Part shown: positions 20,511-20,629 of the stretch, one piece after another
Numbering within the stretch: the first letter of the stretch is position 1
Layout: each line of letters opens with the position of its first letter
DNA from: a virus
Reading direction: 5' to 3' (one strand)
Virus record (IMG/VR): IMGVR_UViG_3300045988_098886
Length of the DNA stretch: 64,000 bases
Program-made: the position numbers and the translations under genes
Notes under the pieces: generated by a model
What the model saw: only the letters and a program-made list of their open reading frames with translations
The model's database searches: none
What the model was told of the DNA's origin: nothing

Positions 20511-20629
20511 GGAAGACATTTTTATACGTTGCTCTACCTGACTGAGCTAAATGAAGCAAGCTTCACTATGAGATTTGAACTCATGACCGACGGCTTACAA
20601 GGCTAGATTGTTATTGCTGTAAGTCTTCC
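20511..20629 (-). ncRNA. ACAGCAA element E3 carrying a circularly permuted tRNA-Thr(TGT)-like body
   Basis: Order is GGAAGAC-TTACAGCAAT..-[tRNA positions 30-73]-TTG-[positions 1-29]-..-GTCTTCC. See the finding for this interval. Confidence 0.7.

What the first reader, a model, noticed from the sequence alone, without database searches (positions are those of the whole stretch)
20511..20629. Circularly permuted tRNA-Thr(UGU)-like gene inside element E3
The minus strand reads: GGAAGAC-TTACAGCAATAACAATCTA-[GC CTTGTAA GCCGT CGGTC ATGAG TTCAAAT CTCAT AGTGAAG C]-TTG-[CTTCATT TA GCTC AGTCAGGTA GAGC A ACG]-TATAAAAAT-GTCTTCC.

The second bracket is tRNA positions 1-29 and the first is positions 30-73. 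Joined 29 to 30 they give a flawless 73-nt cloverleaf:
- 7-bp acceptor CTTCATT/AGTGAAG
- D stem GCTC/GAGC with GG in the loop
- anticodon stem ACGGC/GCCGT
- canonical loop CT-TGT-AA with U33 and A37
- T arm ATGAG-TTCAAAT-CTCAT

In the gene the 3' part comes first. The acceptor helix is capped by a G-CTTG-C tetraloop, and the break sits exactly where the conserved E scaffold attaches.

To my knowledge, permuted tRNA genes are established only in a few algae and one archaeon, not in phages or bacteria. The same topology is used by bacterial Y RNAs (YrlA), which are tRNA mimics whose ends enter through the anticodon side.
Basis: partly seen in the sequence, partly recalled or inferred. Interest (0 to 1): 0.9.

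Follow-up and report, generated by a model that had tools for sequence, protein, structure and literature searches.

The report
Phage Y-RNA-like permuted tRNA mimic
The sequence really does fold like a transfer RNA whose two halves are swapped, but it is most likely a tRNA-shaped decoy or adaptor RNA that works with a Ro60-like protein of the phage (a known kind of RNA called YrlA), not a gene for a working threonine tRNA.

Summary
The minus strand of 20511-20629 reads exactly as described. Joined 29|30, it is called tRNA-Thr(UGU) by ARAGORN, against 0 of 1000 shuffles.

It is not an oddity of this window. A sequence-anchored scan of IMG/VR found at least 117 copies, 81-82 of them distinct. 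The unanchored parts are kept:
- acceptor stem 95.6% paired across 66 different stems;
- T stem 99.3% paired;
- a GC-N7-GC hairpin in 78/81.

- The "anticodon" triplet is hypervariable (23 triplets in 36 distinct loops), while U33, purine-37 and A38 are kept.
- The acceptor helix is a closed hairpin with no CCA.
- A canonical tRNA-Thr(UGU) lies about 450 nt downstream.
- The module is embedded in a repeated scaffold (closing helix plus ACAGCAA), present 11 times in the window.

The window also encodes a DUF2828 protein whose model matches Ro60/TROVE structures. The best match is phage phiLo Ro60, which binds phage Y RNAs. Rfam YrlA matches the T-acceptor-D core at 34.8 bits, below its threshold. 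Relatives lying directly upstream of canonical Ro60 genes score about the same. Scaffold type tracks protein type: ACAGCAA with DUF2828 33:1, GGTTAC with TROVE 9:0.

Verdict: a YrlA-class tRNA mimic, in a new variant.

The parts
20511..20629 (-). Whole element E3: closing helix, ACAGCAA motif and a circularly permuted tRNA-shaped module
   Evidence: Sequence. Unique inverted repeat. MFE fold keeps P1, T arm, acceptor hairpin and D arm. Near-identical in 9 related IMG/VR contigs, with changes only in the linkers.
20623..20629 (-). P1 5' strand GGAAGAC (pairs with 20511-20517)
   Evidence: Across window plus loci there are 414 different P1 strands that stay complementary.
20614..20620 (-). Conserved single-stranded ACAGCAA motif of the scaffold; proposed protein handle
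   Evidence: 21 copies in the window against 9.0 expected, ten of them on the minus strand inside the tRNA array. Co-occurs with DUF2828 genes 33:1. Unpaired in most of the predicted MFE folds of the 11 scaffolds.
20593..20603 (-). Hairpin GC-CTTGTAA-GC: distal 2 bp of the anticodon-stem mimic (30-31:39-40) plus a 7-nt anticodon-like loop
   Evidence: GC lies exactly 7 nt upstream of GCCGT in 78/81 sequence-anchored relatives, although it was not part of the search pattern. Loop statistics: U33 33/36, purine-37 36/36, A38 34/36, 23 triplets.
20590..20592 (-). CGT, the 3' strand (41-43) of the proximal anticodon-stem mimic; pairs with ACG at 20527-20529
   Evidence: Hairpin bp plus this helix sum to 5 bp in every split case. 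A compensatory CGG/CCG version is read by eye in L092 (sequence).
20585..20589 (-). Variable loop CGGTC (44-48), with C48 for the Levitt pair with G15
20568..20584 (-). T arm ATGAG-TTCAAAT-CTCAT
   Evidence: T stem is 99.3% paired in 81 relatives, against 75.7% with shuffled partners.
20550..20567 (-). Closed acceptor hairpin AGTGAAG-CTTG-CTTCATT (7 bp, tetraloop, no CCA)
   Evidence: 95.6% paired in 81 relatives with 66 different stems, against 43.5% with shuffled partners; loop length 2-27 nt.
20531..20549 (-). U8-A9 and D arm GCTC-AGTCAGGTA-GAGC
20527..20530 (-). A26 and ACG (27-29), the 5' strand of the proximal anticodon-stem mimic
20511..20517 (-). P1 3' strand GTCTTCC, followed by the 7-nt spacer GCTTTCT and then tRNA-Glu
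20428..20503 (-). tRNA-Glu(ttc) starting 7 nt after E3. Its RNase P site would define the 3' end of E3 (inferred).
   Evidence: 8 of 11 scaffolds in the window end 6-11 nt before a tRNA.
27764..29485 (-). 573-aa DUF2828/DUF7788 protein: Ro60-like TROVE ring plus vWA domain, the proposed protein partner
   Evidence: Pfam. AlphaFold2 model pLDDT 75. Foldseek top 8 PDB hits are all TROVE/Ro60 over about 545 columns, best 9KOP at E 2.5e-8. The profile's top PDB sequence hit is Ro60 at the vWA MIDAS motif, but E is 0.78.
27625..27720 (-). Scaffold copy without a tRNA module, starting 44 nt after the stop codon of the Ro60-like gene
   Evidence: The same position is occupied in L011/L012.
23416..23557 (-). 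Second permuted tRNA mimic in the same scaffold (break 28|29, loop CTGCTAA)
   Evidence: rotated form called tRNA-Ser(gct)
23975..24117 (-). Third permuted T-acceptor-D module in the same scaffold (class II-like D arm; 5-bp ATCAC/GTGAT stem)
20064..20184 (-). Scaffold copy holding a non-permuted D-anticodon-T module without an acceptor stem
   Evidence: (Rfam tRNA 7-64/71, 24.7 bits)
19974..20057 (-). Conventional tRNA-Thr(tgt), which makes a second Thr(UGU) decoder redundant
   Evidence: (49.2 bits)

Best explanation
E3 is a non-coding RNA of the Y-RNA / YrlA kind, not a tRNA gene.

Proposed transcript and fold. It is transcribed on the minus strand inside the phage's tRNA array. It folds into a 7-bp closing helix (GGAAGAC/GTCTTCC) and a conserved single-stranded ACAGCAA motif. 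The rest forms a full tRNA-shaped module threaded in permuted order: anticodon hairpin, variable loop, T arm, closed acceptor hairpin, D arm, then back to the anticodon stem.

Shown here:
- the fold is conserved with covariation in more than 80 distinct relatives;
- the same core lies directly beside Ro60-family genes in many viral contigs;
- the scaffold type switches with the Ro60 family type.

Inferred:
- The closing helix plus ACAGCAA is the handle bound by the phage's Ro60-like DUF2828 protein (27764-29485).
- The tRNA-shaped module is the effector end. It would engage tRNA-binding factors, such as modification enzymes, RNase P, the CCA-adding enzyme, nucleases or synthetases. It could also tether a host exoribonuclease such as PNPase, as shown for Ro60/Y RNA complexes including that of phage phiLo.
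- RNase P cutting at the 5' end of tRNA-Glu, 7 nt downstream, would release the 3' end of E3.
- Because the acceptor hairpin has exactly 7 bp, RNase P may also open it, followed by CCA addition, as reported for Mycobacterium smegmatis YrlA. That would give a two-piece tRNA look-alike held together by the scaffold.
- The anticodon-like loop is a structural mimic (U33, R37, A38 kept) whose triplet is free or diversifying. It is not a decoder.
For: - Rfam: YrlA (RF02553) is the only family matching the element, over its T-acceptor-D core (34.8 bits; E 4.4e-6 in the local search, 8e-4 over the whole window). Orthologues in L074, L080 and L083 score 35-37 bits.
- An RNA with the same core 144 nt upstream of a canonical TROVE + vWA_Ro60 gene scores only 40 bits. 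The sub-threshold score is therefore typical of this branch.
- Protein partner: the 573-aa DUF2828 protein in the same array is Ro60-like by structure. The top 8 Foldseek PDB hits are all TROVE/Ro60, best 9KOP at E 2.5e-8. 9KOP is phiLo phage Ro60, which binds phage-encoded Y-like RNAs and host PNPase (PMC12135203).
- Adjacency: in distant phages the E3-type RNA lies 100-300 nt from the DUF2828 gene (L083, L080, L074, L091).
- In 117 RNA-anchored loci of only 2-15 kb, 46 contain a Ro60-family gene.
- Handle type tracks protein type: CAGCA handle 33 DUF2828: 1 TROVE; GGTTAC handle 0: 9.
- Unbiased conservation: acceptor 95.6% paired against 43.5% shuffled, with 66 distinct stems; T stem 99.3%; hairpin GC in 78/81.
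- Split anticodon stem: the two parts always sum to 5 bp, with splits of 2+3 and 3+2 in the unconstrained search and also 1+4 in the constrained one.
- Anticodon-like loop: 23 triplets in 36 loops, differing even between near-identical elements.
- Scaffold family: 11 copies in the window; 535 distinct copies against 50 in a reversed-sequence control across Ro-like loci; inserts range from plain hairpins to permuted and non-permuted tRNA modules.
- Literature: YrlA RNAs are encoded next to Ro60 in more than 250 bacteria and phages. M. smegmatis YrlA, with a 7-bp acceptor stem, is cut by RNase P and gains CCA in vivo (PMC4201824). YrlAs are described as resembling circularly permuted tRNAs (10.1101/312249).
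Against: - The Rfam score is half the gathering threshold (34.8 against 69), and only the tRNA-like core aligns.
- The YrlA 5' motif GNCGAA(N)G is absent.
- In this window E3 is 7.1 kb from the Ro60-like gene, and a different scaffold copy sits next to it.
- There are no expression, binding or processing data.
- The Ro60 assignment rests on a medium-confidence model (pLDDT 75, TM 0.31-0.57). The profile-to-sequence hit to Ro60 is not significant (E 0.78).
- 71 of the 117 RNA-anchored loci show no Ro60-family gene in the short flank held.
- S. Typhimurium YrlA lacks an anticodon loop, so the full anticodon arm here is a real difference whose purpose is unexplained.
- Scaffolds sit immediately upstream of tRNAs, so a cis role in tRNA expression cannot be excluded.
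Confidence: 0.72

Rival explanations
1. It is a genuine circularly permuted tRNA-Thr(UGU) gene. The scaffold is cut out, positions 29 and 30 are ligated (circular intermediate), RNase P and a 3' nuclease open the acceptor loop, CCA is added, and the product decodes ACA/ACG codons.
For: - The rotated sequence is a flawless cloverleaf with all tertiary-contact bases, and 0/1000 shuffles reach it.
- The two parts of the anticodon stem always sum to 5 bp, with a 7-nt loop, U33 and R37.
- TGT changes to GGT (both Thr) twice independently.
- The conserved scaffold could in principle be a processing signal.
- Self-cleaving ribozyme candidates occur in these tRNA arrays.
Against: - The triplet varies freely (23 triplets in 36 loops) on one conserved body. 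This includes Ser anticodons without a long variable arm, and different triplets in near-identical elements.
- Acceptor stems are unrelated between orthologues. E3 starts C1-G72/U2-A71, while the phage's own tRNA-Thr starts G1-C72/C2-G71.
- No bulge-helix-bulge motif is visible at the junction (inspection).
- No ligase or splicing endonuclease was found among 30 window ORFs.
- No bacterial tRNA-splicing endonuclease has been reported (10.1101/312249).
- The same scaffold carries non-tRNA hairpins and non-permuted modules without acceptor stems.
- The core is shared with RNAs upstream of canonical Ro60 genes.
- A tRNA-Thr(UGU) already exists at 19974-20057.
Confidence: 0.05
2. It is a two-piece, chargeable tRNA look-alike or an anticodon-loop decoy. 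[quoted passage not shown] The exposed anticodon-like loop and/or CCA end then acts as bait for host anticodon nucleases, synthetases or other tRNA-targeting defences, with the Ro60-like protein protecting or presenting it.
For: - The acceptor stem is fully paired (7/7) in 64 of 82 relatives.
- M. smegmatis YrlA with a 7-bp stem is cleaved and CCA-tailed in vivo (PMC4201824).
- The triplet is hypervariable with conserved loop flanks, a pattern expected for an arms-race bait.
- The element sits in a 25-tRNA array of the kind thought to offset tRNA-targeting defences (the defence link is my own knowledge).
- Permuted two-piece tmRNA genes occur in related phages, which shows that permuted tRNA-like genes are processed there.
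Against: - There is no direct evidence of cleavage, CCA addition or nuclease targeting.
- Loops as short as 2-4 nt may be poor RNase P substrates.
- Triplet variability could equally be neutral drift.
- This reading refines the main explanation rather than replacing it.
Confidence: 0.15
3. The scaffold is a cis-acting leader for expression or processing of the tRNA immediately downstream. The tRNA-like inserts are by-products of tRNA gene duplication and recombination within the array and have no function of their own.
For: - 8 of 11 scaffolds in the window end 6-11 nt before a tRNA.
- Scaffolds are chained in arrays in relatives.
- YrlA is proposed to have arisen from dimeric tRNA transcripts (10.1101/312249).
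Against: - The permuted module is under strong purifying selection with covariation over more than 80 distinct sequences and several scaffold types.
- It also occurs next to Ro60-family genes with no tRNA following.
- Scaffold type follows protein type, not tRNA type.
Confidence: 0.06
4. It is a decaying remnant of a tRNA gene rearrangement or a phage attachment-site fragment.
For: tRNA arrays are recombination-prone, and phage att sites often carry tRNA 3' halves (my own knowledge).
Against: - The 74-nt core is almost invariant in 9 relatives (one change, in the variable loop of L007), while the neighbouring protein diverges to 81% identity.
- At least 117 copies in IMG/VR keep all stems through compensatory changes.
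Confidence: 0.02

Closest known systems
YrlA (Y RNA-like A; Rfam RF02553), the tRNA-mimicking Y RNAs bound by bacterial and phage Ro60/Rsr (Chen et al. 2014, PMC4201824; Wang et al. 2018, 10.1101/312249)
   Same: - The order is the same: 5' stem strand, T arm, closed acceptor-like hairpin, D arm, 3' stem strand.
- The tRNA invariant bases and the Levitt pair are the same.
- It is encoded in the same gene cluster as a Ro60-family protein.
- The GC-N7-GC CGT ... TAGAGCAACG core is shared with RNAs 105-145 nt upstream of canonical TROVE genes.
- The hairpin upstream of the T arm probably corresponds to the 'V' stem-loop of Chen et al.
   Different: - It scores 34.8 bits against a threshold of 69, and only model positions 23-88 align.
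- There is no GNCGAA(N)G motif. The handle is instead a 7-9 bp helix plus ACAGCAA.
- The partner is a DUF2828-type protein rather than a Pfam TROVE protein.
- It has a complete 5-bp anticodon-stem mimic with a 7-nt U33/R37 loop, whereas S. [quoted passage not shown]
Thermus phage phiLo phiRo60 with Yrl1/Yrl2 (PMC12135203; PDB 9KOP)
   Same: It is a phage-encoded Ro60-like ring plus vWA protein, and the best structural match of the window's ORF. That phage has Y-like RNAs encoded beside the gene, and binding to them and to host PNPase has been shown experimentally.
   Different: As described, Yrl1 and Yrl2 carry a CGAA motif in a stem-bulge-stem. The term 'tRNA-like' does not occur in the paper's main text. 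Sequence identity of the proteins is about 14%.
Circularly permuted tRNA genes of Cyanidioschyzon merolae, other algae and Thermofilum pendens
   Same: The 3' half lies upstream of the 5' half. The acceptor ends are joined by a short intervening loop. The rotated sequence is a canonical cloverleaf.
   Different: Those genes have a bulge-helix-bulge junction cut by the splicing endonuclease, and their anticodons match their identity elements. Here no BHB is visible, the triplet is hypervariable, the flanks form a conserved scaffold shared with non-tRNA inserts, and the genomic partner is a Ro60-like protein.
Two-piece (circularly permuted) tmRNA genes
   Same: This is a bacterial and phage precedent for a permuted tRNA-like gene. 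Its acceptor link is removed so that two RNA pieces stay base-paired. Such genes occur in related phages (L083, L080).
   Different: tmRNA has an mRNA-like tag reading frame, pseudoknots and an encoded CCA context. It lacks a D stem and an anticodon arm. E3 has none of the tmRNA-specific parts. Rfam tmRNA gives only 10.3 bits on the T arm.

Membership tests
YrlA / bacterial-phage Y RNA | Conserved T and D stem-loops with tRNA invariant bases, separated by a closed acceptor-like stem-loop, in the order T-AS-D | tested here: met
   Rfam local alignment covers exactly these parts. ARAGORN cloverleaf after rotation. Covariation in 81 relatives.
YrlA / bacterial-phage Y RNA | Score at or above the Rfam RF02553 gathering threshold (69 bits) | tested here: not met
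   34.8 bits. An RNA 144 nt upstream of a canonical TROVE + vWA_Ro60 gene reaches only 40 bits, so the model is insensitive to this branch.
YrlA / bacterial-phage Y RNA | Encoded next to a Ro60 (TROVE) orthologue | tested here: met
   A Ro60-like DUF2828 gene lies at 27764-29485 in the same minus-strand array, 7.1 kb away, with another scaffold copy 44 nt after its stop. E3-type orthologues lie 100-300 nt from the gene in L074, L080, L083 and L091. 46/117 RNA-anchored loci hold a Ro60-family gene.
YrlA / bacterial-phage Y RNA | 5'-proximal GNCGAA(N0-1)G motif (Ro60 contact) | tested here: not met
   There is no CGAA anywhere in the 119 nt. The equivalent position holds ACAGCAA, which tracks DUF2828 rather than TROVE.
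YrlA / bacterial-phage Y RNA | Physically bound by the Ro60-family protein; carries tRNA modifications (psi55, D) | not testable with these tools
   Needs RIP/CLIP, EMSA and modification mapping.
Ro60/TROVE protein family (for ORF 27764-29485) | HEAT-repeat ring followed by a vWA domain with a MIDAS motif | tested here: met
   The model is helical to about residue 353, then an alpha/beta domain. The top 8 Foldseek hits are Ro60/TROVE over about 545 columns, E 2.5e-8 to 7e-6. DxSxS aligns to the Ro60 MIDAS motif. Pfam TROVE itself was not among the families reported at E <= 0.01 (only DUF2828 and DUF7788).
Circularly permuted tRNA gene (algal/archaeal type) | 3' half upstream of the 5' half; the rotated sequence is a canonical cloverleaf | tested here: met
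Circularly permuted tRNA gene (algal/archaeal type) | Bulge-helix-bulge motif formed by leader and trailer at the junction | tested here: not met
   By inspection, leader ...AATCTA and trailer TATAAA... form no 4-bp helix flanked by 3-nt bulges, and these linkers are the least conserved part. They lead instead into a 19-nt/9-nt internal loop and P1.
Circularly permuted tRNA gene (algal/archaeal type) | Anticodon conserved and consistent with the identity elements of the tRNA body | tested here: not met
   23 triplets in 36 loops on one conserved body. Ser-type triplets occur without a long variable arm. The acceptor stem is unrelated to the phage's own tRNA-Thr.
Circularly permuted tRNA gene (algal/archaeal type) | Splicing endonuclease and RNA ligase available to excise and join | tested here: inconclusive
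   None found among 30 window ORFs scanned with Pfam. The rest of the roughly 140-kb genome and the host were not examined.
Circularly permuted tRNA gene (algal/archaeal type) | Mature 29|30-joined, CCA-ended, aminoacylated RNA exists | not testable with these tools
   Needs tRNA-seq or northern blotting.

The most novel reading that the evidence does not exclude
These phages carry a family of complete, circularly permuted tRNA look-alikes, presented on a Ro60-like protein through a new ACAGCAA handle.

In this reading, RNase P opens the 7-bp acceptor hairpin, giving two-piece, CCA-tailed molecules. Their hypervariable anticodon-like loops evolve as bait or sensors for host tRNA-targeting defences (anticodon nucleases, synthetase-linked or tRNA-cleaving immune systems).

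That would give the long-unexplained tRNA-like domain of YrlA-type Y RNAs a concrete role in phage-host conflict.
Probability: 0.15. Interest if true: 0.85.

Novelty: new variant of a known kind. Interest (0 to 1): 0.55.

Why it matters
What the tRNA-like domain of bacterial Y RNAs binds has been open since 2014. This branch offers new handles on that question.
- The tRNA mimic is complete, including an anticodon arm with a freely changing triplet.
- The acceptor hairpin is 7 bp, the length associated with RNase P cleavage.
- It is paired with an uncharacterised protein family (DUF2828) that structure prediction places with Ro60.
- It comes in many copies among phage tRNA genes.

It also gives DUF2828 a testable function and shows that the current Rfam YrlA model misses a large viral branch. 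Practically, it warns that a "permuted tRNA" in phage tRNA arrays should be read as a Y-RNA-type mimic before being counted as a decoder.

Tried and rejected
- GenBank phage search (blastn, distant mode) with 19900-24200 matched only ordinary tRNA genes. There is no close isolate.
- Rfam at gathering and E-value thresholds found no family for the scaffold itself. The 'Dicty_Class_I_RNA' hits on two scaffolds are spurious stem matches. I considered that the scaffold could be a small self-cleaving ribozyme, but no Rfam ribozyme model hits the scaffolds in the window at E <= 1. The only ribozyme-family hit near a relative is a Twister-sister match (21.4 bits, threshold 34) overlapping the L154 element. 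Only about 10 positions of the scaffold are conserved.
- Single-sequence phmmer of the DUF2828 protein against PDB gave only noise. The profile search put Ro60 first but at E 0.78. The Ro60 link rests on the fold search.
- Sigma-70 promoter and intrinsic terminator scans around E3 found nothing above shuffled expectation, and no terminator.
- Thermodynamic folding alone does not single out E3 (z = -1.4 to -1.7) and does not predict the 2-bp hairpin. The support for that hairpin is comparative.
- My first covariation count (A3) used sequences pre-selected for pairing, so I repeated it on a sequence-anchored set.
- A first regular-expression parser returned nothing because of backtracking and was replaced.
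- The review PMC10870794 is not held.
- A search for 'DUF2828' in the literature found no functional study.
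Full report
**1. The observation**

GGAAGAC-TT-ACAGCAA-TAACAATCTA-[GC-CTTGTAA-GC-CGT-CGGTC-ATGAG-TTCAAAT-CTCAT-AGTGAAG-C]-TTG-[CTTCATT-TA-GCTC-AGTCAGGTA-GAGC-A-ACG]-TATAAAAAT-GTCTTCC

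- The terminal 7-nt inverted repeat at this spacing is unique in the window and absent from 100 shuffles.
- ARAGORN sees no tRNA in the native order.
- It calls a 74-nt tRNA-Thr(tgt) once the second bracket is placed before the first.
- None of 1000 dinucleotide-preserving shuffles of the rotated sequence is called a tRNA.
- U8, A14, G15:C48, G18G19, G53:C61 and T54-T55-C56 are all present.

**2. Context in the window**

- The window is a phage-like region with 25 tRNA genes and a tmRNA, all on the minus strand between 13.4 and 35 kb.
- No GenBank phage is related at the DNA level.
- IMG/VR contig 3300045988_090359 (140.6 kb) carries an identical copy of the Ro60-like gene described below and is probably the source.
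- E3 begins 15 nt after the stop codon of a 121-aa ORF.
- E3 ends 7 nt before tRNA-Glu(ttc).

**3. The repeated scaffold**

E3 is one copy of a repeated scaffold on the minus strand. Each copy has:
- an A-rich lead-in;
- a 7-9 bp closing helix that usually starts AGR or GGA;
- zero to three nucleotides, then ACAGCAA (or GCAGCAA);
- a variable insert;
- the complementary strand ending YCT or YCC, followed by G.

Eleven copies lie at 15488-15397, 20184-20064, 20629-20511, 22589-22523, 23139-23073, 23307-23249, 23557-23416, 24117-23975, 26292-26238, 26474-26414 and 27720-27625.
- Eight of them end 6-11 nt before a tRNA gene.
- All eleven fold with the closing helix formed, and ACAGCAA is unpaired in most of them.
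- The inserts differ. Five or six are plain hairpins. Three are permuted T-acceptor-D modules (E3, 23557-23416, 24117-23975). One (20184-20064) is a non-permuted D-anticodon-T module without an acceptor stem.

Across the window and loci around homologues of the Ro60-like gene, NCAGCAA occurs 1605 times, against 305 in reversed-sequence controls. There are 535 distinct scaffolds with a closing helix of at least 7 bp, against 50 in the control, and 414 different helix sequences. This is a real structured-RNA family. Rfam 15 has no model for it.

**4. The protein**

- ORF 27764-29485 (573 aa, minus strand) matches Pfam DUF2828 and DUF7788.
- An AlphaFold2 model built on 20 homologues (pLDDT 75) is helical to about residue 353 and then alpha/beta.
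- Its eight best PDB matches are all Ro60/TROVE structures over about 545 aligned columns. They are 9KOP (E 2.5e-8), Xenopus Ro60 (2I91, 1YVP, 1YVR), Ro60 cryo-EM complexes (9NFA, 9NEP) and Deinococcus Rsr (2NVO). After them come only isolated vWA domains.
- TM-scores are modest (0.31-0.57).
- The sequence profile puts Ro60 first at the MIDAS motif but without significance (E 0.78).
- 9KOP is the Ro60 of Thermus phage phiLo. That protein binds two Y-like RNAs encoded next to its gene and forms complexes with host PNPase that slow RNA decay (PMC12135203).
- A scaffold copy starts 44 nt after the stop codon of this ORF. The same arrangement is seen in L011/L012, whose protein is about 55% identical.

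**5. What Rfam says**

- The only family matching E3 is YrlA (RF02553): 34.8 bits, E 4.4e-6 in the local search, model positions 23-88. That stretch is the four-pair stem, T arm, closed acceptor hairpin and D arm.
- This is half the gathering score, so E3 is not a member by Rfam's rule.
- Orthologues in L074, L080 and L083 score 35-37 bits.
- An RNA with the same core 144 nt upstream of a canonical TROVE + vWA_Ro60 gene (L154) scores only 40 bits, with the same partial alignment.
- The Rfam consensus continues the anticodon-side stem as a long kinked helix, which this branch does not have.

**6. Close and distant relatives**

Nine IMG/VR contigs share the neighbouring 121-aa protein at 81-90% identity. 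They carry E3 with a 74-nt core that is invariant apart from one change in the variable loop of L007. All other changes fall in the two linkers and next to ACAGCAA.

Eighty loci around DUF2828 homologues (38-100% identity) contain dozens of permuted modules inside ACAGCAA scaffolds. Many lie directly beside the gene (L083, L080, L074, L091, L041, L072, L094, L059, L061).

In an unconstrained search for a hairpin 5' of the module:
- The helix formed by the incoming and outgoing strands has 2 or 3 bp, and the adjacent hairpin has 3 or 2 bp.
- The two always sum to 5 bp.
- The loop is 7 nt (9 nt in two cases).
- Modules without a hairpin have a continuous 5-bp helix instead (6 bp in one case).

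A second search that required a 5-bp total and a 7-nt loop also recovered three 1+4 splits. Eighteen distinct rotated sequences from that search are all called tRNAs by ARAGORN, with 12 different anticodons standing for 11 amino acids.

**7. An unbiased sample**

The sets above were selected by pairing, so I scanned IMG/VR with a sequence-only anchor: GCCGT N8-9 GTTCRANTC N30-58 TAGAGCAACG. The parts not specified in the pattern behave as follows:

| Feature | Observed | Control or note |
|---|---|---|
| GC exactly 7 nt upstream of the anchor | 78/81 | not part of the pattern |
| Acceptor stem paired | 95.6% | 43.5% mean, 52.4% maximum with partners shuffled |
| Distinct acceptor stems | 66 | all four Watson-Crick pair types at every position |
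| T stem paired | 99.3% | 75.7% with partners shuffled |
| Acceptor loop length | 2-27 nt, mostly 3-9 | the loops listed show no conserved CCA |

Among 36 distinct 7-nt loops:
- position 33 is T in 33;
- position 37 is a purine in 36;
- position 38 is A in 34;
- the middle triplet takes 23 values.

The triplet differs between otherwise near-identical elements. L100 has ATGTGGA and L127 has ATTGGGA on the same acceptor stem. TGT changes to GGT twice.

**8. Link to Ro60-family genes**

- Although the RNA-anchored loci are only 2-15 kb, tblastn finds a DUF2828-type or canonical TROVE gene in 46 of the 117, often within 100-600 nt.
- Three GC-rich loci tested with Pfam have TROVE genes starting 105-145 nt downstream of the RNA. 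This is the classical YrlA arrangement.
- The scaffold differs with the protein family:

| Handle upstream of the module | DUF2828 gene | TROVE gene | Neither in the flank held |
|---|---|---|---|
| CAGCA | 33 | 1 | 53 |
| GGTTAC | 0 | 9 | 3 |
| other | 2 | 1 | 15 |

This co-variation is the strongest comparative argument that the closing helix plus ACAGCAA is the handle for the DUF2828-type protein.

**9. What it most likely is and does**

What is shown: a conserved, covarying, complete tRNA-shaped module in permuted order, sitting in a conserved scaffold and genomically coupled to Ro60-family proteins.

What is taken from published work:
- YrlA RNAs lie beside Ro60 genes in more than 250 bacteria and phages and mimic tRNA (PMC4201824).
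- S. Typhimurium YrlA is L-shaped, has a closed acceptor stem and lacks the anticodon loop. YrlAs "likely resemble circularly permuted tRNAs" (10.1101/312249).
- M. smegmatis YrlA is singled out in that work as having a 7-bp acceptor stem. It is cut by RNase P and CCA-tailed in vivo, and both halves stay with Rsr (PMC4201824).
- Ro60/Y RNA complexes tether PNPase (PMC4201824; PMC12135203).

What I infer for E3:
- The scaffold binds the DUF2828 protein.
- The tRNA-shaped end recruits or distracts tRNA-binding factors.
- RNase P at tRNA-Glu sets the 3' end of E3.
- RNase P may also open the 7-bp acceptor hairpin.

A decoding role is unlikely for these reasons:
- The triplet is not conserved.
- The tRNA body does not change with the triplet.
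- A helix protrudes from the anticodon stem at 29|30.
- I see no BHB motif at the junction.
- No ligase or endonuclease was found in 30 ORFs.
- A conventional tRNA-Thr(UGU) with G1-C72/C2-G71 lies at 19974-20057.

**10. Comparison and novelty**

It works like YrlA, and by homology of the core it belongs to the wider YrlA class. It fails two formal membership features, the Rfam threshold and the GNCGAA motif.

It also differs in four ways:
- the scaffold;
- the protein family;
- a full anticodon-arm mimic with a hypervariable triplet;
- multi-copy dispersal among tRNA genes.

The hairpin is probably the "V" stem-loop of Chen et al. The 5-bp sum rule and the U33/R37/A38 pattern argue that it stacks on the short helix as an anticodon arm, but that needs a structure. 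I rate it a new variant of a known kind.

**11. Caveats**

- There are no expression or binding data.
- The Ro60 assignment rests on a medium-confidence model.
- The anchor pattern fixes part of the anticodon-side helix, so covariation there comes only from the protein-anchored set.
- The IMG/VR scan was truncated.
- Absence of a Ro60-family gene in 71 short loci is uninformative.
- Only 64 kb of the genome was examined for processing enzymes.

Noticed in passing
window 15397-27720, minus strand (11 copies; coordinates in the full report): A repeated structured-RNA scaffold: a 7-9 bp closing helix plus ACAGCAA, with variable inserts. Eight of the 11 copies end 6-11 nt before a tRNA gene. It has no Rfam family and occurs hundreds of times in phages that encode DUF2828 proteins.
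   Followed up: partly
window 34821-34885 (-): Twister-P1-like ribozyme match at 51.6 bits, below the gathering score of 67.2, about 80 nt downstream of tRNA-Arg(acg) at 34964-35039.
   Followed up: no
window 24906-24980 (-): A tRNA with an 8-nt anticodon loop and a four-base anticodon GCGU (ARAGORN 'tRNA-???'; Rfam tRNA 56.9 bits). It is a possible frameshift-suppressor-type tRNA.
   Followed up: no
window 33165-33715 (-): A standard one-piece tmRNA (75.1 bits) that spans 551 nt against a 374-position model, so it carries large insertions.
   Followed up: no
window 19974-20057 (-), also 21910-21993, 22930-23015, 23160-23242, 26146-26232: Several class I-type tRNAs are 83-87 nt long. The tRNA-Thr(tgt) has an extra hairpin in the variable region and a 6-bp anticodon stem in ARAGORN's drawing.
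   Followed up: partly
window 23073-23139 (-): A small scaffold copy whose insert contains TCAAA-CTTTTAA-TTTGA. This is a 5-bp stem and 7-nt loop that looks like a tRNA-Lys(UUU) anticodon arm, and it lies upstream of tRNA-Lys(ttt) at 22930-23015.
   Followed up: no
window 20064-20184 (-); L013 16203-16334: Scaffold copies carrying a tRNA-like D-anticodon-T module in normal order but without an acceptor stem (Rfam tRNA positions 7-64, 24.7 bits; 8-63, 35.8 bits).
   Followed up: no
L012 5050-5117; L083 4026-4221; L080 3579-3839: Related phages carry a RAGATH-1 hammerhead ribozyme above the gathering score, and circularly permuted (two-piece) tmRNA genes, inside the same tRNA/Ro-like gene neighbourhoods.
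   Followed up: no
L041, L072, L076, L091, L066 (flanks listed): In distant relatives the scaffolds are chained head to tail with a fixed 4-nt spacer (...YCT GATA AGR...). This suggests multi-unit transcripts cut at defined sites.
   Followed up: no
window 15867-16304 (-), 17820-18776 (-), 5906-6604 (-): Protein genes interleaved with or near the tRNA array: an RNase H (84.9 bits), a DnaJ-domain protein and a ferritin-like protein.
   Followed up: no
L154 5880-5961 and 6016-6082: Two YrlA-like partial matches in tandem upstream of a canonical TROVE gene. The second has both a CAGCAG and a GTTAC motif in its 5' part, making it a possible intermediate between the two scaffold types.
   Followed up: no
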